Assembly: GCF_030028105.1 (NCBI RefSeq)
Contig: NC_092391.1
Coordinates: 51,929,223-51,993,222, forward strand
Length of the DNA stretch: 64,000 nt
Reading direction: 5' to 3'
Source: Mobula birostris
Lineage: Eukaryota
The position numbers were made by a program, and so were the translations under genes. The notes beneath the pieces were generated by a model. It had not been told where the DNA came from. It saw nothing but the letters and a program-made list of their open reading frames with translations, and searched no databases. Positions 8,546-62,342 of this stretch are shown piece by piece. Numbering within the stretch: position 1 is the first letter of the stretch; each line of letters begins with the position of its first letter.

Positions 8546-8797
8546 TGAACATCACAACTGCAGATTTTGAAATGGAGACACCACTTGGCCTCAAATTATT
8601 CCAAATGTCCACCATCCATAAAGGCAGATAAATTTAAACCTGAATAACCCACATGCACAGTTACACACACACACAGATACACCACCAACAGCTGTCATTT
8701 AAATTTAATTTATATATGGTAAAATTTCACAATTTGTGTAAAATGATTAAAAATCCACAGCTGATTGATTAATGTGTAGTATGAAGAACAGGCATAC

Positions 8798-8898
8798 CTT
8801 ATCACAGCAGCATCCTACATCACAAGCTCTTGCGGTTAAGTTGCACGGGCAGGGTCCAAGTGGACGGTACTTTTGTTTTGGAATCTGCATCTTGTTTT
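8798..8898 (-). CDS. TCTN2: Tectonic-2 exon 5 (ENKMQIPKQKYRPLGPCPCNLTARACDVGCCCDK)
   Basis: tectonic CxCNLTxxxCDxxCCCD motif; AG/GT boundaries, 101 nt. Confidence 0.96.
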
Positions 8899-9637
8899 CT
8901 ATTAAAATAAAAACAGAAACATTAAACAGCTCATGATTAACGTGATTCTGAAAACTAAATACCACAAGAAGCAGAACAGCACTGCACTTCTCAAAGTGTG
9001 TCAATCCCACAATGGATCACCCATTCAGATACACCGGTCAATACACATGAGGCCTGTCACAGTGATACTGCATGGGCCTGAGTACCCTCAAAATAGATGG
9101 GGAATTAGCTGGCGTTCCCATCTTCTAACTGTGATCCAGCTGGAAACATCCATGGACAGGCCAAGCAGCCTCAGACTAGACAGTGAATTAGCCAGAGTTT
9201 CCTTCTTCTAATTGTGATCCAGCTGGCAACATCCATTGATAGGCTGAGCAGCCTCAGAGTATATGGTGAATTAACTGGAGTTCCCTTCTTCTAATTGTGA
9301 TCTGGCTGGAAACATCAACGGACAAGCCGAGCAGCCTCAGAGTAAACAGGGAATTAGCTGGCATTCCCTTCTTCTAATTGTGATCCAACTGGAAACATCC
9401 ACAGACAGGCTGAGCAAGCTCAGACTAGAAGATGAATTAGCTGAAGTTTCCTACTTCTGATCGTGATCTGGCTGGAAACATCCATGGACAGCCTGAGCAG
9501 CCTCAGACTAGATGGTAAATTAACTGGCGTTCCCTCCCTCTAATCTTGATCCAGCTGGAAACATCGATGGACAGGCCACACACATCAAAGTTGCTGGTGA
9601 ACGCAGCAGGCCAGGCAGCATCTCTAGGAAGAGGTAC

Positions 9638-17696: not shown

Positions 17697-18508
17697 CTAA
17701 ATAGTGAAATAGTTACATTAGATCAGAAGCTGCCAAGGATCATTGCATCTTACAGCACACAACATCCACCACCTTAGCCAACACATTTATAAAAAAAATC
17801 CTATTTTACATCTAAAGATCAGCAAAAAAAAATGGAAGCTGATGCAACGTCCAGATCAGGGATTCCCAACCTTTTTATACCACAGACCCTTACCATTAGT
17901 TGAGGCGTCCATGGATTCCAGGTTGGGAAGTACAAAACATATTAGTTATATGAAAAATTGGAGGCAATAAATTTTAAGTTCTACACAGCTGAAGGAGGCT
18001 GAAAACAGGAGCTATCAATTTGAACAGAAAAAGGAAGAGCCGGTACTTTCTCAATGGGGGGGGGGGGCGGTGTTAGCAGTGGAAATCCTAAGTTTTGGGA
18101 CACCACGAGCAGAAATTAAAATCTCATAAACGAGATCTAAACCTTTTGTAAGAGACAACAGTGAGTGAAGGGGACTGAAGTCTTCTCTTGGTTAAATAAA
18201 TACATCACTGGTTGGGGCACGCCATGAACAGCTCTGGACTCCACACCACAGACATTGACCAGAGTGACACATGGGCCACAAGGTTTAAATTACAAAGGGA
18301 TATTACTGAAAATCTGAATATTAGAGGCGACTTATTGAAGCTTCACATTCAAGGGAACAAACAGCATACATAACAAGAAAACATATTTCTGCAGGACAGC
18401 TTCCCAGCACTTGTCCCGCTGATGGTCAAAGCCGGAGAGGGTCAGGTAGGCTAAAGTCCCCGGACCCATCCCGTTCCCCTTAGTTCCCACCCCCGGGTGA
18501 GGCCGCAC

Positions 18509-18590
18509 CGACAGTGCCGCAGGATCCGCCGCACACGAAGCCGCACCAAAACAGCGCGAAGGCCCGGCCGAGCGGGTCCCAGCCCGCCAT
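18509..18590 (-). CDS. TCTN2: Tectonic-2 exon 1 (signal peptide, MAGWDPLGRAFALFWCGFVCGGSCGTV)
   Basis: gccATGG start in a CpG-rich island; hydrophobic N-terminus; 82 nt ending phase 1 at donor GTGCGG, in frame with exon 2. Confidence 0.8.
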
Positions 18591-18745
18591 GGCCAAGCTC
18601 CAGACCACTCAGCAAGGCGACGTGCGATTGGTCGGTGGCAAAGGCAAGCCAATGAGACCATACGGTGAATCGTGGTCCCGCAACGACCGGTTGCCATGGA
18701 GCGAGCTGCGGGGTTTTGAGCGCCCACTGGTGGTGAGGGGGCGTC
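18591..18745 (-). promoter_or_regulatory. TCTN2 CpG-rich promoter/5' UTR with two CCAAT boxes and an RFX X-box-like site
   Basis: gattgg near 18626, ccaat near 18649, GTTGCCATGGAGC at 18690-18702. Confidence 0.65.
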
Positions 18746-20096
18746 ATGGTATCCAGGGAGACATTGAGGGAGCGCCGTGGTATCCAGGGAGACATTGAGG
18801 GAGCTCCGTGGTATCCAGGGAGACATTGAGGGAGTGCCATGGTATCCAGGGAGACATTGAGGGAGCTCCGTGGTATCCAGGGAGACATTGAGGGAGCTCC
18901 GTGGTATCCAGGGAGACATTGAGGGAGTGCCGTGGTATCCAGGGAGACATTGAGGGAGCTCCGTGGTATCCAGGGAGACATTGAGGGAGCTCCGTGGTAT
19001 CCAGGGAGACATTGAGGGAACGCTGTGGTATACTGGGAAGACATTGAGGGAGCTCCGTGGTATCCAGGGAAGACATTGAGGGAACGCCGTGGTATACTGG
19101 GAAGACATTGAGGGAACGCCGTGGTATCCAGGGAGACATTGAGGGAGCTCCGTGGTATCCAGGGAGACATTGAGGGAGCTCCGTGGTATCCAGGGAGACA
19201 TTGAGGGAGCGCCGTGGTATCCAGGGAAGACATTGAGGGAGCGCTGTGGTATCCAGGGAGACATTGAGGGAACGCCGTGGTATCCAGGGAGACATTGAAG
19301 GAGCTCCGTGGTATCCAGGGAGACATTGAGGGAGCGCCATGGCATCCAGGGAGACATTGAGGGAGCGCCGTGGTATCCAGGGAGACATTGAGGGAACGCC
19401 GTGGTATCCAGGGAAGAGATTGAGGGAACGCCATAGTATACTGGGAAGACATTGAGGGAACGCCGTGGTATACTGGGAGACATTGAGGGAACGCCGTGGT
19501 ATACTGGGAAGACATTGAGGGAATGCCGTGGTATCCAGGGAGACATTGGGGGAGCTCCATGGTATACTGGGAGACATTGAGGGAACGCCGTGGTATCCAG
19601 GGAGACATTGAGGGAATGCTGTGGTATACTGGGAAGACATTGAGGGAGCACCGTGGTATCCAGGGAAGACATTGAGGGAGCGCCGTGGTATCCAGGGAGA
19701 CATTGAGGGAACGCTGTGGTATACTGGGAAGACATTGAGGGAACGCTGTGGTATACTGGGAAGACATTGAGGGAACGCTGTGGTATCCAGGGAGACATTG
19801 AGGGAACGCTGTGGTATCCAGGGAAGACATTGAGGGAGCTCCGTGGTATCCAGGGAGACATTGAGGGAACGCCGTGGTATCCAGGGAAGAGATTGAGGGA
19901 GCTCCGTGGTATACTGGGAAGACATTGAGGGAGCGCCATGGTATCCAGGGAGACATTGAGGGAACGCTGTGGTATACTGGGAAGGCATTGAGAGAGCGCC
20001 ATGGTATCCAGGGAGACATTGAGGGAGCACCATGGCATCCAGGGAGACATTGAGGGAACGCCGTGGTATACTGGGAAGGCATTGAGGGAGCTCCAC
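18746..20096. repeat. 31/32-bp minisatellite (~43 units) GTGGTATCCAGGGAGACATTGAGGGAGCTCC
   Basis: direct periodicity, e.g. tatccaggg at 18781 and 18812. Confidence 0.98.
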
Positions 20097-20533: not shown

Positions 20534-22849
20534 CATTCTACCTGTGCCTTATTTCACCCAATATCTCTGACCTGGACCCAGGATTGAAGTAAACCACAGA
20601 GAGTTGTAAACTTAGTCGGCACTATCATCAGAATCAGGTTTATTATCACCAGCATGTGACGTGGAATTTGTTAACTTAGCAGCAGCAGTTCAATGCAATA
20701 CATAATCTAGCAGAGAGAGAAAAAATATAATAATAAATAAAATAAAACAATAAATAAACAAGTAAATCAATTACATATATTGATTAGATGATTTAAAATG
20801 TGCAAAAACAGAAATACTGCATATTAAAAAAGTGAGGTAGTGTCCAAAGCTTCAAAGTCCATTTAGGAATCAGATGACAGGGGGAAGAAGCTGTTCCTGA
20901 ATTGCTGAGTGTGTGCCTTGGGCATTAGCCTCCGAAGTATACAGGACATCTTCAAGGAGCGATGCCTCAATAAGACACATCCATCATTAAGGACTCCCAT
21001 CACTCAGAACATGCCCTCTCCTCATTGCTACTATCATGGAGGAGGTACAGGAACCTGAAGACACACACTCAGTGATTCAGGAACAGCTTCTTCCCCTCTG
21101 CCATCCGATTTCTGAATGAACCTTGAATTCATGAACACTACCTCACTACTTTTTATTTCTATTTTGTCTGCACTACTTATTTAATTTAACTTTACAGTTG
21201 TATTTACTGTAATTCAGCTTTTTTCTATCATTGTACTGCTGCCGCAAAGTTAACAAATGTCACAAGATATGCTGCTGGTATTAAACCTAATTCCAATTTG
21301 CTTTTTTCTGTTTGCGACAGTTCATTTCTCTCGTTACAACTGCAGCTTGCACTCACATAAAGAGTCTTCAACTTTGATTTTTTTTTAGTGCTTGCTTTCC
21401 CCAGATTCAATGTTTGGCTACACATGATTATTTATATTTATATTTTCTACACTGCTCTCCTTCCCTTCACTATCCTGTGCCCACTTTTCTCTCTTTTGCC
21501 TTCCACCCTTCCCCATTAATTAATTTAAAGCCCTGTCTAAAATCTAGTTGTAGCAGCAAGACTAATCCAAAATCAAAACAAAATTGCCGCCAGCATGCGA
21601 CTGCCACAGGGTTGTTATACTTGCTTAACGCACTCTCCACTCCAATCAAATGATTGTTCCGAAAAGACAAATCCTTTGTTAGCAATTAGCAAACATACAA
21701 TCTTGAAGCGATATTACGTGGTCAGCAAAGATATGACCTCCGCTGGTCCAAAGCCACAAACTGCCAAGAAATAAGGAAGAATACGTAACTTATTCCCTTC
21801 ACTTTTAACACTCATGAGGCTAGTTACCATAATAAATCAGATAAATGCACAACACAGAGAATATGGCTCCTCCACCAGTTATGACAGTCACCAGTCCATT
21901 TGTCTCAGCACTGTTCAGACACACTCAGGATCAGCTTTAATATCACTAGCATATGCCGTGAAATCTGTTGTCTTTGCAGCAGCAATACAGTTCAATATAT
22001 TATAATAATAAAAATAAAACTATAAGACTATGAATTATAATAATTATATAGTTTTTAAATAAATAAGTGGTGTAAAAAGAAAGGGGAAAATGGTGAGGTA
22101 GTTTTCATGGATTCACTGTCCATTCTGAAATCTGAACTGACATTTTAGATCACAGACCTGTCCTCAAGAATTTAGCTCGTTGCTATTCTCTAGGACTCCA
22201 GAGATCCTGCTGAGTAACCCTATGTGATCTCTGGCGCCGGAAGCTCCCTCCTCCCATTCTGAGACACAAGAGCTTCTGCAGATGCTGTTAATCTTCAGCA
22301 ACTTGCACTGAATGCTGGAGGACCCCAGCAAATGATGGAAGGTCTTGACCCAAAACATTGACTGTTTACTCTGCTCCATAGATACTGCCTGACTTGCTGA
22401 GTTCCTCAAGCAGTTGGGGTGTGTTGCAAACTTTCCGTTTGTGATTTCACCAAAGTGCTCGCCTCGTCGTCTCTGTCTGGCTGTCAAGGGCTGGAGTTTC
22501 AACAGTGTGTGTCTGTATCCAGGATCTAACTTGCAGTGACTCAGACAGTTCCTTGTCCTCTGTCCTGGAAGCATCCAGCCTCGAAATAAAACACTGACCT
22601 CCTTAAGATGATGAGCTTGAGGACCCCCTGTAAATAAAATAGGCAAGCTGTTACTTGTTAATCCCTCAGTAATGTTTAACACTGACAAAACAAGTGTTTT
22701 GGCTCACTGCAGATTAAATCCAATTAAAGCCACTTATAAAACATTCAGCCAACTTCCCGTTCCCCTGTGTCCGAACCCTAGCTACAGACTTCACTCCACC
22801 GCAGCTCTTGCCTTAATTCACTCCGTTTTGGACATTGCTAGAACACATT

Positions 22850-23044
22850 ATGCCTATGGAGCACCAGTTGAAACGTCCCTCGGGTCGTTCTTTGAGGAGC
22901 CCAAGTGAGCTAGAAACCAGCCTTCGCCTGTCCTTGTCCTTGTTCAGGAATGATCCGATGTTCTCCTGGTGTGTGGCTGATATAATGACAGCACCCAAGT
23001 CTCTTTGTAACCAACTTATCAAGAACCAGACAGCCCTGATGGAG
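22850..23044 (+). CDS. putative uncharacterised gene, coding exon A (MPMEHQLKRPSGRSLRSPSELETSLRLSLSLFRNDPMFSWCVADIMTAPKSLCNQLIKNQTALME)
   Basis: non-repeat island; ctag acceptor at 22841 preceded by ccttaat; ATGs at 22850/22856; donor GAG|gtacat phase 0; CR1 debris starts about 50 nt later. Confidence 0.55.
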
Positions 23045-23094
23045 GTACATTTGATTGTTTATTTTAGATATTGGTATAAACACCAAATCAGCTC

Positions 23095-23895
23095 ACATAA
23101 AATGGGGGAGATCTTAAATGGATTTTTTTTTGCATCTGTATTTACTTGGGAGACAAACAGAGAGTCTAGAGATGTGAGGAAATGTTCCAGCAATGTCATG
23201 GACCCTATACAGCCTACAGAGGAGGTGTCTGCTACCTTGAGGCAAAGTAGGGTGGATAAATCCCTAGGGCCTGGCAATCTGGTCCCTTGGACCATGTGGG
23301 AGGCAAGTGCTAAAATTGCAAGGGCCCTAGCAGAGATATTTAAAACAACCTTAGCCCAGAGTGAAATACCAGAGGATCAGAGGATAGCTAATGTTATTCT
23401 GTTGTTCAGGAGAGTGTCTAAGAATAAGCAGGTAATTTATAGGCTGCAGACTTGACGTCCATAGTGGGTAAGTATTGGAAGATATTTTAAGGAACCAGAT
23501 ATATAAATTGGCTTAGAGGGAGATATCAGAGAGTGGTAGAAGATAGTTGCCTCTCTGACTAGAGGCCTGTGACTAGTGCCAGGACTTGAAGACCTGAGTC
23601 ATAGTCATAGAAAAATACAGCATAGAAACAGGGTGAAAGGTGAAATGTTTAAGGGGAACCTGAAGGGAAACTTCTTCACTCGAGGGTGGTGAGAGTGTGG
23701 AACAAGCTGCCAGCGCAAGTGGTGCATGTGAGCTCGGTTTCAAAGTTTAAGAGAAGTTTGGATAGGTACGTTGGTGGGGTAGGGGAATGGAGGGCCATGG
23801 TTTGGGTGCAGGTCGATGGGAGGAGGCAGTTTAAATGGTTCAGCATGGACTAGATGGGCTGATGGGTCTGCATCTGTGCTGTATTTTTCTATGAC
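23095..23895 (+). mobile_element. CR1 fragments
   Basis: LNGFFFASVFT, VDKSLGP, IPEDQRIANVILLF and a CR1 3' end. Confidence 0.8.
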
Positions 23896-24823
23896 TCGAA
23901 TAGCTGGACATTTCCGTAGCTTCTGTCAGAAAAGCCTCCAGGAGGTGGTGATCATGACTCTCAGTGACCTGTTCACTCTCTCACACACAACATTTACTTC
24001 ACTATGATCCGTGCTCAGGGCCAGTGAACAAAGCTGGCTTTACTCTCGCCCAGTGTGGTCAACAGGAATTAAGACCAACATCTTTTCTCAGTGTAGTAGT
24101 TTTCACTCTACACTCCCAGTTGTTGTAAGCTTCTGACACAACAACTCACCACAGTGAGTGTGAACAGTTTAATCAGTTGTTATTATGTTCAAAGTACATT
24201 TATTATCAAAGTATATATATGCCACCATATACAACCCTGAGATTCATTTTCCTGCAGGCATTCACAGTAAACACAAAGAAACAACAAAATAATAATAATA
24301 AGTAAGTAATAAATATTGAGAACATGAGATGAAAGTGAGTCCACAGGTTGTGGGAACAGTTCGGTGTTGGTGTGGGTGAAGTTGAGTGAACCTTGGTCAT
24401 CCTCTGTAAATGTCCATATCCACTCTCCATCTTCACAACTTCCCTCATACAAGCAGGTACTGACTCACCTGTTGGACAGCCACTGACATGAGAATGATAT
24501 TGAATAGCTGGGCTTCCTGCACTGGTTTCAAATCAACAATTTTACAGAAGGAGGCTGGTAGAGCAATGACAGAAATCAAGTCTGGAATTTGAAAATAAAG
24601 AACTGCAGGTGCTGGAAACCTGAAATGAAAAAAGATGCTGGAACCACTCAGGTGGTCAGGCAGCATCTGTGAAGAGAGAAACAGTTAATTTTTCAGATCA
24701 AAGAACTCTTTCACACAGATGCTGTCTGAACTACAGAGTGCTTCTAGCATTTTTAATGTAAGAGTTTGAACCAATGACTGGCAGAATCAGCTGAGTAAAT
24801 GGATAATTTGGTATCTGTTCCAG

Positions 24824-25090
24824 AACCTGAGGAGACTGGAACATCAAAGGATAACACGAATGAGGCAGCTTAATGAAGAAAGGCAACACTTTGCTCTTCT
24901 CATGAGGAGGAAGCTGGCTCCCAGGGTCAACAGATGGCCTCCCCTACCTCGCACATCTGCCTGGGTAACTTACTCTAACGAAAACTTCTCTCCCCAAGCT
25001 GGATACAAAGGCACAAGTACAGAACATATGAACCAGTGCAAGACCAATGGGCAGGCAAACCTTGCTGACACCCAATCCAAACTGTTGAAG
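24824..25090 (+). CDS. putative uncharacterised gene, coding exon B (NLRRLEHQRITRMRQLNEERQHFALLMRRKLAPR...SKLLK)
   Basis: tctgttccag acceptor phase 0; open helical frame; ends at GC donor AAG|gcaagt (25090) or alternative TGG|gtaact (24964), both phase 0. Confidence 0.55.
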
Positions 25091-25113
25091 GCAAGTGGAA
25101 CTGAACTGTACAC

Positions 25114-25865
25114 TGAAACCTACTGAATGTTGAAAGGCCTAGGCAGAGTGTATGTAGAGAGGATGTTTCCTATGGTGGGGGAGTCTAAGACCAGAGGAAT
25201 AGAGGGATGTCCATTTAGAATGGAAATGAGAAGGATTTTCTTTGGCTTGAGAGTGGTGAATCTATAGAACTCGTTACCACAGGTGGCTGTGGAGGCCAAG
25301 GTATTGGGTGTATTTAAGACAGAGGTTGATAGATTGTTGATTAGTCAGGGCGTGAAGAGATACGGGGAGAAGACCGGAGGTTGGGGATGAGAGGGAAAAT
25401 GGATCAGCCATGATGAAATGGTAGAGCAGACTCAATTGGCCAACGGCCTAATTCTACTCCTCTGTCTTATGGTCTTTTGACCTTGTGTCCTCACTGGCAT
25501 TCAAAAGAATGAGAGGGGATCTCATCAAAACAAAAATTCTGAAAGGGACTGATAAGATAGAGGCAGGAAAATTGTGTCCACTGGTGAGTGAGACCAGAAC
25601 AAGAGGACATGGGAATAAATTTAGGATGGAGATGAGGAGGAACTGCTTTTCCCAGACAGTAGCAAATCTGTGAAAATTCTCTGCCCATGGAAGTAGTGGA
25701 GGATAGTTCATTAAATGAATTTAAGACACAGATAGATTTTTTGCATAGTAAGAGACTTGAGGGTTATAGGGAAAAGGTAGGTGAAGTTGTCCACAACAAG
25801 ATCAGCCAAGGATTTTACTGAATGGTGGAGCAGGGTCGAAGGGCCAAACAGTCACTCCAGTTCCT
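25114..25865 (+). mobile_element. two tandem CR1 3' ends
   Basis: similar to 3050-3415; first ends tcttatggtctt near 25476. Confidence 0.82.
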
Positions 25866-25951
25866 CTTTCTTACAGTATATAAATCCAAGCAGCACTTAG
25901 TGTTGTAGCACAAATATTCCTCTCTCCACAAGGATTTCTTTTCTTTTGCAC

Positions 25952-26044
25952 TGTAAACCTCAGCATCTACGTGTCCTCCACATTGCCAGGACTCTGATGT
26001 AAACCTCAGCATCTATGTGTCCCCCACATGCCAGGACTCTGATG
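25952..26044. repeat. ~46-bp tandem duplication
   Basis: tgtaaacctcagcatcta..ccaggactctgatg twice. Confidence 0.85.
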
Positions 26045-28561
26045 GGAGGAGAATTTAGTGACCAGTTAACGTATGGAGCAGGGACTTTGACTGAAAGCAG
26101 CCCGGCAGATTTTAACACAACTCCGTGTTTCCTTCAGACACTGCGGAGTCGTCAAAATTCCACCCACCAAACAACTGAAATTCAACTGGAATAGGAATTT
26201 CTGTCTTTAGGGAGGCCGGCGTTTCTGCCTGTCCACGGTCAGTAACTTCTGCTCTCAAGATTTAAGATCATTTAATGTCATTTCCAGTACACAAGTGTAA
26301 AGGAGAATGAGATAATTGTTACTTCAGATCCAATGCAGCACAAAAAAAACACACACACAATGAGATAAAGAACGCACTAATAATAATAATAAAACACAAT
26401 AAATATAAATGCTTAAAGATAGCTTATGTACATAGATTGATTGTATGTCCATAAAGTGCTGCTAGACACAGGGGTGCCTGTACATAAGTTGGCTGACAGG
26501 AAATGATAAAGTAGTGGTAGCTGGGGGTGTGGAGGGGTGGGTTACTGGATGGAGGTGTTAATCAGCCTTGCTGCTTGGGGAAAGTAACTTCTTGAGTCTG
26601 GTGGTCCTGGCGTGGAAGCTACTGTACGTAGTGGTGTCAATGCTGTGAAGCCTCCACCCTGACGGGAGCGGGACAAACAGTCCATGAGCAGGATGGGTGG
26701 GATCCTTCATGGTGTTACTGGCCCATTTCCATCACCTTTCTGGATATACAGTATGTCCTGATAAGTTCTGATAGCTACCTGCAGGTACAATTAAGAAACA
26801 AATGGCCTGATTCAGGCCATGACCCCTGAAGCCTGATTTCCTCTATCATTGAGACACACACTTTCTCACAACATTCATCCTCCTCCTCACACATTCACCA
26901 ACTCTGCCTTCACGGTTTTCTCAGGTACAGAATTCCAGAGATGCACAATTGTTCAAGAGAAGGTGGTCTCCCTTACCTGGATCCTTGATTAGGGGGTCCA
27001 TCATTCTGAAATTATGATCCTCCAGAAGAAACATCCTCTCAGCTTCCCCGACTGATGTGTCTTCAACTCCAGTAAGGATAAGCCAAATGGCCTTAGTAAA
27101 TCAAAGTACTGAGTACAAGAGATGGGATGTTATGTTGAAGCTGTATAAGATGTTGGTAAGCCTAATTTAGAGAATTGTGTGCAGTTTTGGTCACCTACCT
27201 ACGGGAGATATATCCTAACACTAAGATTGAAAGAGAGCAGAGAAAATTTACAAAGATATTGCCAGGACTTGGGGACTTGAGTTATAAGGAAAGGTTGAAT
27301 AGTTAGGGTTTATTCCCTAGAGTGTAGCAGAATGAGAGATTTGGTAAAGATATAGAAAATTAAGGGGTATAGATAGGATAAACACAAGAACCTCCTTTGA
27401 ACCCTCTCCAATGTCAGTACATCCTTTCTTAGATAAGGGACGTCAAACTGCTCACAATACTCCAAATGAGGCCTCACCAGTGCTTTATAAAGCCTAAATT
27501 ACATCCTTGCTTTTATGTTCTATTCCTCTTGAAATGAATGCTGATGTTGCATTTGCCTTCCTCGCCATAGACTCAACGTGCAAATTAACCTTTAGGGAAT
27601 CCTGCACGAGGCTTTCTCCACTGGCATTGAGTGAGACTATAACTAGAGGTCATGGGTTAAGAGTGAAAGAAATTCCCATTTCTCTCTCTCACCTTATCTC
27701 CTTACCTGCCTATGTCCCTTACTTCCATGTCCCTCTGTCCTCTCCTATCAGATTCCCCCTTCTCCTGTCCTTTATTTCTTTCACGATTCGACTTCCCAGC
27801 TCTTTATTTCACCCCTCACAACAAGCTGGAGGAACTCAGCAGGTCAGGCAGCATCCGTGGAAAAGATTGGTTGCTGCCCGACCTGCTGAGTTCCTCCAGC
27901 TTGTTGTGAGTGTTGCTTTGGCCCCAGCATCAGCAGATTATTTTGTTTATTTCACCCCTCCCCCACTCCCGGTTTCATCTATCACCTACTACCTCGTATT
28001 TCTTCCTCCCCTCCCTCTACCTTCTTATACTGACTTCTCAGCCCAAAACATCGGCTGTTCACTCTTTTCCATAGATGCTGCCTGGCCTGCTGATTTCCTC
28101 CAGCATCTTGTGTGTGTTGCTTACATTTCCAGTACCGGCAGATATTCCCTTGTGTGGAATGAGATGCAAGAGGAGGAGGTGGACGTGTGTTTGATTTCAA
28201 CATTTAAATGAAATTTGGATAGGTACATGGCTGGGAGGGATATGGCGGGCTTTGGTGCAGGTGCAGGTTGATCAGACTAGGCAGATTAATGGTTTGGCAG
28301 AGACTAGGTGGGCCAAACGGCCATTTTCTTTGCTGTAGTGTTCTATGATTCCAATCTGGTCAATATTTCCTCATTAAAACTACCCCTTCATCCCAGGAAG
28401 CACCAAGGGAACCTTCTCTGCATTATCTCAAATAGAAGTACAGTACATCCTCCTTAAATAAGGTCCCCAAAATTTCACACAATAATCCGGGTGTGATCTC
28501 TTTGGCATCTCAACGTTTTTGCAAAACATTACTGCTTGTGTACTTAATTATCTTGGTAAAA

Positions 28562-28999
28562 AATTTTGAAAGGTTTATCATATGAGGGGTGTTTGATGTC
28601 TCTAGGCCTGTACTCACTGGAATTCAGAAGAATGAGAGAGGATCTTATTAAAACCTATAGAATGTTGAATAGCCCCAATAGAGTGAATGTGGAGATGTTT
28701 CCTATGGTGGAGGAGTTTAAGACCAGAGGATACAGCCTCTGAATAGAGGGTCTTCCATTTAGACCAGGAAGAGGAATTTCTTTAGCCAGAGGCTGGCAAA
28801 TCCGTGGAATTTATTGCCACAGGCAGCTGTGAAGGCCAAGTCATTGGGTATACTTAAGGGGAAGGTTGATAGATTCTTGATTAGTCAGGGCATGAAAGGA
28901 TACAGGGAGAAAGCAGGAAATTGGGGCTGAGAAGGAAATGGTGGAGCAGACTTGATGGGCCAAATGGCCTACTTCTGCTCCTATATCTTATGGTCTTAT
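28562..28999 (+). mobile_element. CR1 3' end
   Basis: LGLYSLEFRRMR remnant; tail tcttatggtcttat. Confidence 0.85.
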
Positions 29000-29023
29000 A
29001 AACCACCTTCTTCTTCATTTCAG

Positions 29024-29146
29024 GGTTCAACCACTCACCTCACTACGGCAACCAGAAATGTCTGCACCTGCTCGTGCATGAAGCTTCCAAGGCGAGCACA
29101 TTCCCTCCCAAATCTCTGGTCTGGCTCCTCAGATCCTGCACTGTAA
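29024..29146 (+). CDS. putative uncharacterised gene, terminal exon C (GSTTHLTTATRNVCTCSCMKLPRRAHSLPNLWSGSSDPAL*)
   Basis: strong acceptor ccttcttcttcatttcag; phase 0 frame to TAA; AATAAA at 29336-29341. Confidence 0.5.
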   Translation, partial: GSTTHLTTATRNVCTCSCMKLPRRAHSLPNLWSGSSDPAL

Positions 29147-29449
29147 AATGAAGCAGCAGAAGCCTCATCTGGGCTGTGTGTGTTGTAGGAAATAGCTGTG
29201 GTATCACCGGCCAATGTTACTGCAGACTCTCAAAGGTTTCCTGGTTAATTTCTGATGTCCAGCTTCACTTGCATAAATCTGGTGTGACCCATATATTAGC
29301 CACAGGCCACACTCCGCTAGTACTTCAGATTAGTAAATAAACATGAACACTTCATTTCTGGAGCAAATGCAGTAAATATTAATAATATTTGTGCAATTTA
29401 TCCTAAAAAAAAAGCTTGTGGTGTTGATGGTTTTAAAAGATGAGACCTG

Positions 29450-33177: not shown

Positions 33178-33262
33178 CTAAAAATTAAAAAGAGAAATTC
33201 ATTAGAGACTGAACAATGTACAATTAAAAGTTTCAACAACCGAGAAAGTGTTTGAGACTCAC

Positions 33263-33398
33263 TGGATAAGCAGACAGAACACACGTAGCCAATTTCGATC
33301 AGGTTTCGGTGGCAGAAGCAGGCAGCTCTGTAATCCACATGAACTGGGGGAGGGAGGACGAGCTGGGACCTCTGCTCTGGCGCTGGCAGGAACATCCA
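33263..33398 (-). CDS. GTF2H3: TFIIH p34 exon 11 (WMFLP...[25 protein letters not shown])
   Basis: zinc-finger region of p34; ccag/gtgagt boundaries, 136 nt. Confidence 0.98.
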
Positions 33399-58339: not shown

Positions 58340-61300
58340 AAGGGATGTAGGGAATGAGGCAGGGGATGGGAATGTGGTGGAGAGGGGATGAGATGGTGAG
58401 AGTGTGCAGGGATGAAGAAAGGGGTGTGATTTAAGGGATTGGGTGGGGTATAGGAGGCAGGGGAGGGGAATGTGGTGGTGAGAGTGTGCGGGGATGAAGA
58501 AAGGGGTGTGATTTAGGGGAATGGGTGGGGTACAGGAGGCAGGGGAAGGGAATGTGGTGGTGAGAGTGTGCGGGGATGAAGAAAGGGGTGTGATTTAGGG
58601 GAATGGGGTGGGGTATAGGAGGTGGGGGAGGGGAATGTGGTGGAGAGAGGGGATGAGATGGTGAGAGTGTGCGGGGATGAAGAAAGGGGTGTGATTTAGG
58701 GGAATGGGTGGGGTATAGGAGGCAGGGGAGGGGAATGTGGTGGTGAGAGTGTGCGGGGATGAAGAAAGGGGTGTGATTTAGGGGAATGGGCTGGGGTATA
58801 GGAGGCAGGGGAGGGGAATGTGGTGGTGAGAGTGTGCGGGGATGAAGAAAGGGGTGTGATTTAGGGGAATAGGCTGGGGTATAGGAGGCAGGGGAGGGGA
58901 ATGTGGTGGTGAGAGTGTGCGGGGATGAAGAAAGGGGTGTGATTTAGGGGAATGGGTGGGGTATAGAGGCAGGGGATGGGAATGTGGTGGAGAGAGGGGA
59001 TGAGATGGTGAGAGTGTGCGGGGATGAAGAAAGGGGTGTGATTTAGGGGAATAGGCTGGGGTATAGGAGGCAGGGGAGGGGAATGTGGTGGTGAGAGTGT
59101 GCGGGGATGAAGAAAGGGGTGTGATTTAGGGGAATGGGTGGGGTATAGGAGGCAGGGGAGGGGAATGTGGTGGTGAGAGTGTGCGGGGATGAAGAAATAG
59201 GTGTGATTTAGGGGAATGGGTGGGGTATAGGAGGCAGGGGATGGGAATGTGGTGGAGAGAGGGGATGAGATGGTGAGAGTGTGCGGGGATGAAGAAAGGG
59301 GTGTGATTTAGGGGAATGGGTGGGGTATAGGAGGCAGGGGAGGGGAATGTGGTGGTGAGAGTGTGCGGGGATGAAGAAAGGGGTGTGATTTAGGGGAATG
59401 GGCTGGGGTATAGGAGGCGGGGGATGGGAATGTGGTGGAGAGAGGGGATGAGATGGTGAGAGTGTGCGGGGATGAAGAAAGGGGTGTGATTTAGGGGAAT
59501 GGGTGGGGTATAGGAGGCAGGGGAGGGGAATGTGGTGGTGAGAGTGTGCGGGGATGAAGAAAGGGGTGTGATTTAGGGGAATGGGCTGGGGTATAGGAGG
59601 CAGGGGATGGGAATGTGGTGGAGAGAGGGGATGAGATGGTGAGAGTGTGCGGGGATGAAGAAAGGGGTGTGATTTAGGGGAATGGGTGGGGTATAGGAGG
59701 CGGGGGAGGGGAATGTGGTGGTGAGAGTGTGCGGGGATGAAGAAAGGGGTGTGATTTAGGGGAATGGGTGGGGTATAGGAGGCGGGGGAGGGGAATGTGG
59801 TGGTGAGAGTGTGCGGGGATGAAGAAAGGGGTGTGATTTAGGGGAATGGGCTGGGGTATAGGAGGCGGGGGAGGGGAATGTGGTGGTGAGAGTGTGCGGG
59901 GATGAAGAAAGGGGTGTGACTTAGGGGAATGGGTGGGGTATAGGAGGCGGGGGAGGGGAATGTGGTGGTGAGAGTGTGCGGGGATGAAGAAAGGGGTGTG
60001 ATTTAGGGGAATGGGCTGGGTATAGGAGGCGGGGGAGGGGAATGTGGTGGAGAGAGGGGATGAGATGGTGAGAGTGTGCGGGGATGAAGAAAGGGGTGTG
60101 ATTTAGGGGAATGGGTGGGGTATAGGAGGCAGGGGAGGGGAATGTGGTGGTGAGAGTGTGCGGGGATGAAGAAAGGGGTGTGATTTAGGGGAATGGGTGG
60201 GGTATAGGAGGCAGGGGAGGGGAATGTGGTGGTGAGAGTGTGTGGGGATGAAGAAAGGGGTGTGATTTAGGGGAATGGGTGGGGTATAGGAGGCAGGGGA
60301 TGGGAATGTGGTGGTGAGAGTGTGCGGGGATGAAGAAAGGGGTGTGATTTAGGGGAATGGGCTGGGGTATAGGAGGCAGGGGATGGGAATGTGGTGGAGA
60401 GAGGGGATGAGATGGTGAGAGTGTGCGGGGATGAAGAAAGGGGTGTGATTTAGGGGAATGGGTGGGGTATAGGAGGCAGGGGAGGGGAATGTGGTGGAGA
60501 GAGGGGATGAGATGGTGAGAGTGTGCGGGGATGAAGAAAGGGGTGTGATTTAGGGGAATGGGCTGGGTATAGGAGGCAGAGGATGGGAATGTGGTGGAGA
60601 GAGGGGATGAGATGGTGAGAGTGTGTGGGGATGAAGAAAGGGGTGTGATTTAGGGGAATGGGCTGGGGTATAGGAGGCAGGGGATGGGAATGTGGTGGAG
60701 AGAGGGGATGAGATGGTGAGAGTGTGTGGGGATGAAGAAAGGGGTGTGATTTAGGGGAATGGGCTGGGGTATAGGAGGCAGGGGATGGGAATGTGGTGGA
60801 GAGAGGGGATGAGATGGTGAGAGTGTGTGGGGATGAAGAAAGGGGTGTGATTTAGGGGAATGGGTGGGGTATAGGAGGCAGGGGATGGGAATGTGGTGGA
60901 GAGAGGGGATGAGATGGTGAGAGTGTGTGGGGATGAAGAAAGGGGTGTGATTTAGGGGAATGGGTGGGGTATAGGAGGCAGGGGATGGGAATGTGGTGGA
61001 GAGAGGGGATGAGATGGTGAGAGTGTGTGGGGATGAAGAAAGGGGTGTGATTTAGGGGAATGGGTGGGGTATAGGAGGCAGGGGATGGGAATGTGGTGGA
61101 GAGAGGGGATGAGATGGTGAGAGTGTGTGGGGATGAAGAAAGGGGTGTGATTTAGGGGAATGGGCTGGGGTATAGGAGGCAGGGGATGGGAATGTGGTGG
61201 AGAGAGGGGATGAGATGGTGAGAGTGTGCGGGGATGAAGAAAGGGGTGTGATTTAGGGGAATGGGCTGGGGTATAGGAGGCAGGGGATGGGAATGTGGTG

Positions 61301-62160
61301 GAGAGAGGGGATGAGATGGTGAGAGTGTGTGGGGATGAAGAAAGGGGTGTGATTTAGGGGAATGGGTGGGGTATAGGAGGCAGGGGATGGGAATGTGGTG
61401 GAGAGAGGGGATGAGATGGTGAGAGTGTGTGGGGATGAAGAAAGGGGTGTGATTTAGGGGAATGGGTGGGGTATAGGAGGCAGGGGAGGGGAATGTGGTG
61501 GTGAGAGTGTGCGGGGATGAAGAAAGGGGTGTGATTTAGGGGAATGGGCTGGGGTATAGGAGGCAGAGGATGGGAATGTGGTGGAGAGAGGGGATGAGAT
61601 GGTGAGAGTGTGTGGGGATGAAGAAAGGGGTGTGATTTAGGGGAATGGGTGGGGTATAGGAGGCAGGGGATGGGAATGTGGTGGAGAGAGGGGATGAGAT
61701 GGTGAGAGTGTGTGGGGATGAAGAAAGGGGTGTGATTTAGGGGAATGGGCTGGGTATAGGAGGCAGGGGAGGGGAATGTGGTGGAGAGAGGGGATGAGAT
61801 GGTGAGAGTGTGCGGGGATGAAGAAAGGGGTGTGATTTAGGGGAATGGGCTGGGGTATAGGAGGCAGGGGATGGGAATGTGGTGGAGAGAGGGGATGAGA
61901 TGGTGAGGGTGTGCGGGGATGAAGAAAGGGGTGTGATTTAGGGGAATGGGTGGGGTATAGGAGGCAGGGGATGGGAATGTGGTGGTGAGAGTGTGTGGGG
62001 ATGAAGAAAGGGGTGTGATTTAGGGGAATGGGCTGGGGTATAGGAGGCAGGGGATGGGAATGTGGTGGAGAGAGGGGATGAGATGGTGAGGGTGTGCGGG
62101 GATGAAGAAAGGGGTGTGATTTAGGGGAATGGGTGGGGTATAGGAGGCGGGGGAGGGGTG
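58340..62160. repeat. G-rich satellite with 82-bp and 100-bp unit variants in GTF2H3 intron 1
   Basis: period 82 (60121 to 60203) and 100 (60841 to 60941); long unit adds GAGAGAGGGGATGAGATG. Confidence 0.98.
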
Positions 62161-62342
62161 AGGAATAAAGGAGAGGGTGATGAAAGGGGTATGAGGCTGG
62201 GGAGGGGAAGGAGAGGGTATGAAGGATGGGTGTAGGTCAGGCGGGAAAGGGGAATAAAGGAGAGGGTGATGAAAGGGGGGACATAGGAGGCGGGGAGGGG
62301 ATCAGGGTAACTGCGGGGCGGACACCGCCGTCACTCACTCAC

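What the first reader, a model, noticed from the sequence alone, without database searches (positions are those of the whole stretch)
22842..29341. Unrecognised three-exon plus-strand gene between TCTN2 and GTF2H3
Seen: the main non-repeat islands in this transposon-filled gap each carry splice sites and join in phase 0 (22850-23044, 24824-25090 or -24964, 29024-29146), giving 194 or 152 aa, then AATAAA at 29336. The A/B junction reads as one continuous charged amphipathic helix (QLIKNQTALME|NLRRLEHQRITRMRQLNEERQHFALLMRRKL) and the tail has RRAHSLP, an RxxSxP phospho/14-3-3-type motif. Established: in human, GTF2H3 and TCTN2 are neighbours and I recall no named coding gene between them. Inference: an uncharacterised gene, divergent from the ciliary gene TCTN2, possibly lost in mammals. 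I cannot assign a family, and it may already exist as an automated uncharacterised model.
Basis: partly seen in the sequence, partly recalled or inferred. Interest (0 to 1): 0.78.

Follow-up and report, generated by a model that had tools for sequence, protein, structure and literature searches.

The report
Unnamed ancient vertebrate gene beside TCTN2
This is a real three-exon gene for a small, basic, still unnamed protein found from lamprey to lizards; it lies between the same two neighbours (GTF2H3 and the cilia gene TCTN2) in a lizard, likely shares TCTN2's promoter, is predicted to act as a docking helix in cilia or sperm tails, and may have been lost in mammals and birds.

Summary
The gene is real. 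The long form (192-194 aa, with a GC-AG second intron) aligns end to end with an uncharacterised horn shark RefSeq protein (107/197 identical). A full HMMER scan found 31 relatives. The named ones are 'uncharacterized' models from lamprey, sharks, skate, bichir, gar, several teleost lineages, lungfish, amphibians and squamates. None is from a mammal, bird, turtle or crocodilian. Both intron positions recur in frog or teleost fragments. In the lizard Sceloporus the orthologue lies between GTF2H3 and TCTN2, 46 bases from TCTN2, on the X chromosome, so the gene order is conserved. The conserved part is a 75-residue helical domain ending in a 47-residue amphipathic helix; the tail is basic and disordered. 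No Pfam family passes its cut-off, and six gene ids gave 0 papers. The 14-3-3 motif is not conserved (7 of 33). Best reading: a non-enzymatic adaptor co-transcribed with TCTN2 under RFX control and working in cilia or sperm flagella (about 40%; no expression or localisation data). Loss in mammals and birds is suggested, not shown. Two look-ups in this scan's earlier findings gave nothing on this gene.

The parts
22856..23044 (+). Coding exon A (63 codons from the ATG that aligns with the shark start; an in-frame ATG lies at 22850, and an AG at 22840-22841 could make this an internal exon)
   Evidence: 36 of 63 residues identical to horn shark P0001; tblastn E 1e-16; GT donor; acceptor context
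24824..25090 (+). Coding exon B: second half of the conserved helix plus a low-complexity linker; ends at a GC donor
   Evidence: 33 of 38 identical to P0001 in the 5' part, 20 of 51 in the 3' part; donor fits 8 of 9 consensus positions; frog single-exon ORFs leave the spliced protein at about the same place
24965..24970 (+). Possible alternative GT donor (short, 152-aa form); not the orthologous main form
   Evidence: In frame, 6 of 9 consensus positions; removes 42 residues that align with shark and skate and scores lower
29024..29146 (+). Coding exon C with a CxC and a basic-x-x-Ser motif, and the stop codon
   Evidence: 20 of 40 identical to P0001; also hit by skate-like P0052, E 3e-07; acceptor has 16 of 20 pyrimidines
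29147..29341 (+). Likely 3' UTR ending at the first AATAAA (29336-29341)
   Evidence: Sequence; use of the signal not tested
18400..18799 (.). CpG island at the TCTN2 5' end; candidate shared (bidirectional) promoter, with an X-box half-site at 18690-18699 about 100 bases upstream of the probable TCTN2 ATG (18590, minus strand)
   Evidence: GC 0.61-0.68, CpG o/e 0.81-0.85; the only such 10-mer in the window, but 16 of 100 shuffles also have one; the lizard orthologue lies 46 bases from TCTN2
18734..20091 (.). 31-bp minisatellite (43 copies) between the CpG island and exon A; its unit resembles an X-box
   Evidence: Tandem Repeats Finder; 23 of the window's 42 two-mismatch matches to a recalled X-box consensus fall in it
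8750..9016 (-). Flank: tectonic (TCTN2-type) exon
   Evidence: Pfam DUF1619_N, 44.6 bits, cut-off 22
33258..33395 (-). Flank: GTF2H3 zinc-finger exon
   Evidence: Pfam Tfb4, 75.4 bits, cut-off 27

Best explanation
This three-exon gene is the single-copy orthologue of an unnamed vertebrate family, and it likely shares an RFX-controlled promoter with TCTN2 and is predicted to encode a non-enzymatic adaptor that docks through one long amphipathic helix onto a partner in cilia or sperm flagella. Shown: exon structure, orthology, family range, conserved gene order in a lizard, a conserved N-terminal domain and a variable, basic, Ser/Thr-rich tail. Predicted: two short helices and a 47-residue helix whose hydrophobic face repeats every 99 degrees (3-4-4 spacing), which suits a straight helix lying along a surface or a non-canonical coiled coil rather than a leucine zipper. 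Inferred: co-transcription with TCTN2; ciliary or flagellar location; tail binding to acidic surfaces such as microtubules and regulation by basophilic kinases; loss in mammals, birds and many teleosts. Odds by step: real gene 0.97, orthologue at a conserved locus 0.95, shared promoter 0.65, ciliary or flagellar structural role 0.4.
For: Horn shark XP_067910614.1 aligns end to end, 107 of 197 identical. 31 representatives at E up to 1e-3, 26 up to 1e-10, with names from lamprey to squamates. Core residues 23-96: mean modal identity 0.65-0.76 against 0.20-0.32 elsewhere; L29, D33, E81, E82, F86, M90 and L94 are invariant in 33 of 33 rows; pI 9.4-11.5 in the 32 relatives; hydrophobic period peaks at 99 degrees; the window protein groups with shark and skate rows at 100/100. 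AlphaFold2 on 25 sequences: helices 16-33, 35-46 and 49-95, 68 residues at pLDDT 90 or more, no secondary structure after residue 95. One locus only in the own genome. Single-exon ORF fragments of frogs and teleosts break at the window's splice points. P0052, a 204-aa skate-like protein from a 1,255-base sequencing-run contig, covers all three exons, which implies a spliced transcript in a relative. Sceloporus LOC121916494 (the gene of P0012) lies at 3,803,422-3,806,808 between GTF2H3 (ends 3,803,004) and TCTN2 (starts 3,806,855) (PMC13642048, Table S2 rows). RFX2 binds Tctn2 in mouse testis (PMC4498915, passage), and TCTN2 falls in RFX2-null human neurons (PMC10900739, passage). An X-box half-site lies in the window's TCTN2 CpG island.
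Against: There is no expression, localisation or interaction evidence for any family member, and no RNA reads were laid on this locus. The ciliary reading rests on neighbourhood and on general protein properties. The lizard table gives no strand, so head-to-head orientation there is inferred from the window. In the window exon A is 4.1 kb from the TCTN2 CpG island, and no upstream exon was shown. The X-box half-site is not significant window-wide (16 of 100 shuffles). The same RFX2 paper says RFX2 binds core ciliary promoters without a dominant role in their expression. Head-to-head partners are often functionally unrelated (general knowledge). A core ciliary part would be expected in mammals and birds, where no hit was seen. 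The tail motifs are only partly conserved: CxC in 16 of 33, RxxSxP in 7 of 33, CxC followed by basic-x-x-Ser in 10 of 17.
Confidence: 0.4

Rival explanations
1. A conserved helical adaptor with a non-ciliary job (for example a nuclear or cytoplasmic partner-binding protein, possibly of germ cells) that is only a neighbour of TCTN2.
For: Same sequence evidence as the best reading. Basic pI and a long helix are also typical of nuclear proteins (general knowledge). No hit in mammals or birds, which keep their cilia genes.
Against: The 46-base spacing from TCTN2 in a lizard and RFX binding of Tctn2 make shared control in ciliated cells and testis likely. No nuclear or nucleic-acid-binding family passes a Pfam cut-off in 25 members.
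Confidence: 0.38
2. A remote paralogue of a named small coiled-coil family (CCDC190/CC190, or DUF5528), so not a separate family.
For: The own genome's CC190 N-terminal exon aligns to the core profile in the register seen by eye, at 6.2 bits, reached by 101 of 2000 shuffles. The ESM Atlas feature search gave DUF5528 at 0.76.
Against: The CC190 member of this genome lies on another contig. hhalign probability 0.9% (one side is a single sequence). Neither family is listed for any of 29 or 25 members. An Atlas score under 0.9 is a lead only, and no DUF5528 match passes the cut-off in the own genome. Generic helices give such scores.
Confidence: 0.12
3. A real but decaying or lineage-variable gene with little function left in this species.
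For: The window protein departs from the family mode at several well-conserved positions in exon A (5 of 17 modal residues in region 47-63; for example positions 36, 38, 54 and 57), and the family seems to have been lost in several lineages.
Against: The frame is intact over 192 codons and three exons, all seven invariant residues are kept, and the end branch is short (0.16).
Confidence: 0.06
4. Exon B is an exapted fragment of a CR1-type LINE ORF2, or the three exons are a chance join.
For: The three weak own-genome hits of exon B (E 3-9) are LINE ORF2 C-terminal fragments, and the window protein scores 8.3 bits on a profile of 26 window LINE fragments (1 of 1000 shuffles).
Against: The family core profile does not recognise a LINE copy (-0.1 bits, 499 of 2000 shuffles). 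Newt and gar members score like shuffles (221 and 194 of 1000); the shark is at 12 of 1000. The lead was picked after the fact from a 4-Gb search. The family reaches lamprey and its helix spans an intron.
Confidence: 0.02

Closest known systems
RefSeq/GenBank automated models: Heterodontus francisci XP_067910614.1; Rhinoraja LOC144605885; Petromyzon LOC116957776; Lepisosteus LOC107079560; Protopterus LOC122799471; Xenopus laevis LOC108705565; Sceloporus LOC121916494
   Same: Orthologues: same core domain and, where fragments show them, the same intron positions; same neighbours in Sceloporus.
   Different: All are named 'uncharacterized' or 'hypothetical' (one Varanus GenBank model carries an unrelated enzyme name). 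No Pfam family, and no paper found for six of the ids. The window gene uses a GC donor at intron 2.
CCDC190 (Pfam PF15768 CC190)
   Same: Small vertebrate protein with an N-terminal long charged helix and a variable tail; loosely similar helix register.
   Different: Separate locus in this genome; no significant profile match; no counterpart of the invariant L29 and D33 region was seen in the CC190 exon.
Microtubule inner proteins and other long-helix axonemal or sperm-tail proteins (as a way of working; properties recalled)
   Same: Small, basic, one long helix with a non-heptad period, the rest disordered.
   Different: No sequence match was seen in the PDB with either profile; no localisation data; membership not shown.
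DUF5528 (Pfam PF17666; that its human member is C5orf52 is recalled)
   Same: Chordate family of similar length; second hit of a language-model feature search (0.76).
   Different: Score below the usable mark; no HMM match in any member.

Membership tests
Unnamed vertebrate family of XP_067910614.1 / LOC108705565 / LOC121916494 | Full-length alignment to a member | tested here: met
   107 of 197 identical to P0001, E 3e-71; 151 bits on a 25-sequence profile that holds no window sequence
Unnamed vertebrate family of XP_067910614.1 / LOC108705565 / LOC121916494 | Invariant core residues (L29, D33, E81, E82, F86, M90, L94) | tested here: met
   33 of 33 rows, the window protein included
Unnamed vertebrate family of XP_067910614.1 / LOC108705565 / LOC121916494 | Position between GTF2H3 and TCTN2 | tested here: met
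   Window and Sceloporus; only these two species could be checked
Unnamed vertebrate family of XP_067910614.1 / LOC108705565 / LOC121916494 | Shared intron positions | tested here: met
   P0028 and P0030 end at the exon A boundary; P0029, P0031 and P0054 begin at the exon B boundary; P0029 and P0031 read through near the exon B end. Inferred from protein fragments, not from their DNA.
Protein-coding gene expressed in this species | Spliced RNA reads across both junctions | not testable with these tools
   No sequencing runs were obtained for this stretch; only indirect support from a relative's short contig (P0052)
CCDC190 (PF15768) | Match to the CC190 HMM above its 27-bit cut-off | tested here: not met
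   Not listed for any of 29 or 25 members; the genome's CC190 matches lie on C16, not here
CCDC190 (PF15768) | Remote homology of the N-terminal helix | tested here: inconclusive
   6.2 bits, 101 of 2000 shuffles; hhalign 0.9% against a single sequence
DUF5528 (PF17666) | Match to the DUF5528 HMM above its 28.9-bit cut-off | tested here: not met
   Not listed for any member; this locus is not among the 2 weak own-genome matches
Canonical heptad coiled coil (leucine-zipper type) | Hydrophobic period near 103 degrees | tested here: not met
   Family-averaged moment 0.98 at 99 degrees against 0.62 at 103; single sequences peak at 98-100
Axonemal or sperm microtubule inner proteins | Sequence or fold match to a solved axonemal chain | tested here: inconclusive
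   only generic long helices, which cannot discriminate
Axonemal or sperm microtubule inner proteins | Location on axonemal microtubules | not testable with these tools
   Needs imaging, proteomics or cryo-EM in a species that keeps the gene
14-3-3 client (mode-1 RxxSxP) | Motif conserved across orthologues | tested here: not met
   7 of 33 in the last 70 residues; one of the 7 (lamprey) is not at the tail position (sequence)
CR1-type LINE ORF2 derivative | Reciprocal profile match across the family | tested here: not met
   core profile against a LINE copy 499 of 2000 shuffles; newt and gar at shuffle level

The most novel reading that the evidence does not exclude
A vertebrate-specific, more than 500-million-year-old partner gene of the Joubert/Meckel gene TCTN2, driven from the same RFX promoter, that encodes an undescribed ciliary or sperm-tail structural protein and was lost independently in mammals, in birds and their relatives, and in major teleost lineages. 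It would be a cilium component that human, mouse, chicken and zebrafish work cannot see, and it is X-linked in iguanian lizards.
Probability: 0.25. Interest if true: 0.7.

Novelty: new member of a known kind. Interest (0 to 1): 0.47.

Why it matters
The gene is predicted automatically in many genomes but, by the searches run here, has no name, no Pfam family and no literature. It defines a conserved 75-residue domain as old as vertebrates. If it shares TCTN2's promoter and works in cilia or sperm, it is a part of the ancestral vertebrate ciliary toolkit that the main model animals appear to lack, and it can be tested directly in Xenopus (LOC108705565). The patchy distribution would make it a clean case of repeated gene loss at a locus whose neighbours stayed in place. 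If it is only a neighbour, it remains a well-supported annotation: an uncharacterised conserved gene with a GC-AG intron.

Tried and rejected
Pfam on the three exons, on P0001, on 29 relatives and on 25 aligned members: no family over its cut-off. PDB sequence searches with both profiles: best E 0.055 and 0.55, unrelated chains. Foldseek against the PDB: 1 match at E 9.2. VIA-align over 48,161 chains: none at Z 8 or more, best Z 5.7 on residues 48-101, all generic long helices, axonemal and non-axonemal tied; the short N-terminal helices were barely tested. Complex prediction of two copies of residues 16-100: no answer, score 0.00, alignment not used; no evidence either way. ESM Atlas: no usable feature hit for the whole protein; 0.77 and 0.76 for residues 15-105. 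CCDC190, DUF5528 and LINE ancestry: see rivals. The amphioxus hit P0025 was dropped: it does not match the core profile and the matched stretch is a repeat. Expression data in supplements: none found. The Xenopus atlas PMC9314398 uses Xelaev ids that I could not map to LOC108705565 (one file not readable). PMC10081853, PMC5655803, PMC6403364, PMC8282838 and the lamprey paper PMC9090840 gave no row for the gene (in the last, 4 files were not searched and no control gene was found, so these blanks say nothing about expression). The X. laevis genome paper is not held. Paper searches: TCTN2 with GTF2H3, 13 listings, none on this gene by title or start of abstract; six LOC ids, 0 papers; TCTN2 with head-to-head or loss terms, 45 papers, 12 listed, none of the 12 holds TCTN2; C5orf52, 15 listings, none bearing on this. 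This scan's earlier findings: nothing by sequence, unrelated archaeal notes by words. dN/dS could not be computed, because no orthologous DNA was available.
Full report
Observation. They are 195, 267 (or 141) and 123 bases long, join in phase 0 and give 194 or 152 residues with one terminal stop; AATAAA follows at 29336. Each lies in a stretch that is unique in a self-comparison of the window, 44% of which is repeated. The donor of the long exon B is GC, with the other eight consensus positions met, as expected of a GC-AG intron (general knowledge). The flanks are a tectonic gene (DUF1619_N at 8750-9016, minus) and GTF2H3 (Tfb4 at 33258-33395, minus), so the plus-strand gene points away from TCTN2 and towards the 3' end of GTF2H3. 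That the tectonic gene is TCTN2 and not a paralogue rests on gene order, not on a test of its own.

The gene is real. A search with exon B alone found one protein among 11 candidates, an uncharacterised horn shark RefSeq model of 200 aa. It hits all three exons in order and aligns with the long form at 107 of 197 identities: 36 of 63 in exon A, 33 of 38 and 20 of 51 in the two parts of exon B, 20 of 40 in exon C. Its start lines up with the second ATG (22856), giving 192 aa. The short form leaves a gap of about 42 residues and scores lower on both profiles tried (133 against 151 bits, and 158 against 216). It may be a minor isoform but is not the orthologous form. No RNA reads could be laid on this locus, so expression in this species is not shown. 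Indirect support: P0052, a skate-like 204-aa protein from a sequencing-run contig of only 1,255 bases, covers all three exons, which is hard to explain unless the contig is a spliced transcript.

Family. A 4-row profile run over 1.84 billion cluster representatives gave 31 hits at E up to 1e-3. 26 of the 31 could be named. One, a 3,239-aa amphioxus protein, is spurious. The other 25 come from lamprey, two sharks, a skate, bichir, gar, arapaima, tarpon, conger, an anchovy, whitefish, Dallia, lungfish, a newt, four frogs and six squamates. The 5 unnamed ones are nearest to frog or teleost members. A word-seeded search with 25 sequences gave 21 hits, 17 of them named, adding paddlefish, eels, salmon, Umbra and another newt; it missed the frog and lizard members of its own query, so its blanks mean little. 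No named hit is a mammal, bird, turtle, crocodilian, carp relative or percomorph. Squamates alone gave six clusters, so hundreds of mammal and bird genomes giving none points to loss (inference). But close relatives can hide inside a 50% cluster, and fast-evolving ones can fall below a 4-row profile, so loss is not shown. In a tree of the 77-column core (33 rows, no fragments, amphioxus left out) the window protein sits with shark and skate rows (100/100) and squamates form a clade (99/99); deep branches are weak. The own genome holds one locus. The window therefore most likely comes from a ray (inference).

Gene structure and order are conserved. Unspliced single-exon ORFs of teleosts end at the exon A boundary, those of frogs and one teleost begin at the exon B boundary, and two frog-like ones read through near the end of exon B. 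In Sceloporus undulatus the orthologue LOC121916494 occupies NC_056531.1:3,803,422-3,806,808, between GTF2H3 (3,793,321-3,803,004) and TCTN2 (3,806,855-3,820,421) (PMC13642048, three rows of supplementary Table S2). Only 46 bases separate it from TCTN2. The table gives no strand; if the orientation is as in the window, the two genes are head to head. That chromosome is the iguanian X (passages of the same paper), and the gene's log2 male/female DNA coverage is -0.83. This is the only other species in which gene order could be checked.

Protein. Conservation is confined to residues 23-96 (mean modal identity 0.65-0.76 against 0.20-0.32 elsewhere), with seven residues invariant in 33 of 33 rows. 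AlphaFold2 with 25 sequences gives the shark protein helices at 16-33, 35-46 and 49-95 at high confidence and no secondary structure after that (pTM 0.39; a 4-row model was poorer). Its hydrophobic face has a period of 99 degrees, not the 103 of a heptad, which suits a straight helix lying on a partner or a 3-4-4 coiled coil (general knowledge). All 32 relatives measured are basic (pI 9.4-11.5), with tails of 18-33% Ser/Thr in the 8 counted. The tail keeps a loose CxC and basic-x-x-Ser pattern in about half of the family; the RxxSxP motif is in 7 of 33. I saw no catalytic motif. No Pfam family passes its cut-off for any member scanned.

How it likely works. The conserved element is a binding surface, not an active site, so I read the protein as an adaptor or structural part (inference). 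Which compartment? The lizard spacing suggests a promoter shared with TCTN2. RFX2 binds Tctn2 in mouse testis, though without a dominant effect on core ciliary genes (PMC4498915, passages), and TCTN2 drops in RFX2-null human neurons (PMC10900739, passages). In the window the TCTN2 CpG island (18400-18799) carries the only copy of an X-box half-site 10-mer, about 100 bases upstream of the probable TCTN2 ATG; by itself that is not significant (16 of 100 shuffles). Exon A has a plausible acceptor at 22841/22842, so a 5' exon from the island, 4.1 kb away, is possible but not shown. A small, basic protein with one non-heptad helix and a disordered tail, made under RFX control, would fit a microtubule-associated part of cilia or sperm tails (properties of such proteins recalled). 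I put this at 0.4, a non-ciliary adaptor that merely neighbours TCTN2 at 0.38, a remote CCDC190 or DUF5528 paralogue at 0.12, a decaying gene at 0.06 and a LINE-derived or chance join at 0.02.

Results against the reading. There are no expression or localisation data. Supplement searches in six Xenopus and lamprey papers gave no row for the gene, mostly because the ids could not be matched or the tables were partial; files that were cut or unreadable there may bear on expression. Apparent absence from mammals and birds argues against a core ciliary role. The window protein departs from the family mode at several conserved positions of exon A.

Novelty. Orthologues exist as automated models, so the gene is not unrecognised in the strict sense. 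But I found no name, no family model and no paper: six gene ids gave 0 papers in the held library, and two further searches showed none on this gene among the listings seen; subscription journals and most supplements are not covered. I file it as a new member of a known kind (a conserved small helical protein of unknown function), with the family itself undescribed. Interest 0.47; about 0.7 if the TCTN2-coupled ciliary role and the repeated losses hold.

Papers seen: PMC13642048 (passages and three supplement rows); PMC4498915 and PMC10900739 (passages); PMC9314398, PMC10081853, PMC5655803, PMC6403364, PMC8282838 and PMC9090840 (supplement searches only); all others as search listings only. 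Recalled and from no call: the human GTF2H3-TCTN2 order, TCTN2's link to Joubert and Meckel syndromes, the X-box consensus, the CR1 label of the LINE fragments, the C5orf52 label of DUF5528, and the age of the lamprey split.

Noticed in passing
window 18734-20091: A 31-bp minisatellite of 43 copies starts right at the edge of the TCTN2 CpG island. Its unit matches a recalled RFX X-box consensus with two mismatches; 23 of the window's 42 such matches lie in it. It could be an amplified promoter element or chance; not tested.
   Followed up: partly
window 25090-25096 and 25112-25297: Intron 2 has a GC donor, and a LINE ORF2 fragment begins about 20 bases downstream of it. Frog-like fragments appear to have GT at this intron (they read on with Val).
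   Followed up: partly
L011:1468-1662 and L010 (G000:C16:82525043-82539299): The genome's CCDC190-type gene: both ends pass the CC190 cut-off (37.8 and 40.2 bits).
   Followed up: partly
Sceloporus NC_056531.1:3.79-3.82 Mb (PMC13642048, Table S2): GTF2H3, the unnamed gene and TCTN2 all show male/female DNA coverage near log2 -0.8, so the block is X-linked and hemizygous in males of this lizard.
   Followed up: no
P0013 (GenBank KAF7240740.1, Varanus komodoensis): This family member is labelled 'Succinate--CoA ligase subunit beta' by its source, which looks like a misannotation; the RefSeq member of the same cluster is 'uncharacterized' and Pfam finds nothing.
   Followed up: no
window 58382-62183: A 3.8-kb G-rich compound satellite with 82-, 100- and 183-bp periods.
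   Followed up: no
window 18731-18738: A plus-strand donor-like site lies between the X-box half-site and the minisatellite (seen in the sequence); it could end a short 5' exon that splices to 22842, but nothing here tests that.
   Followed up: no
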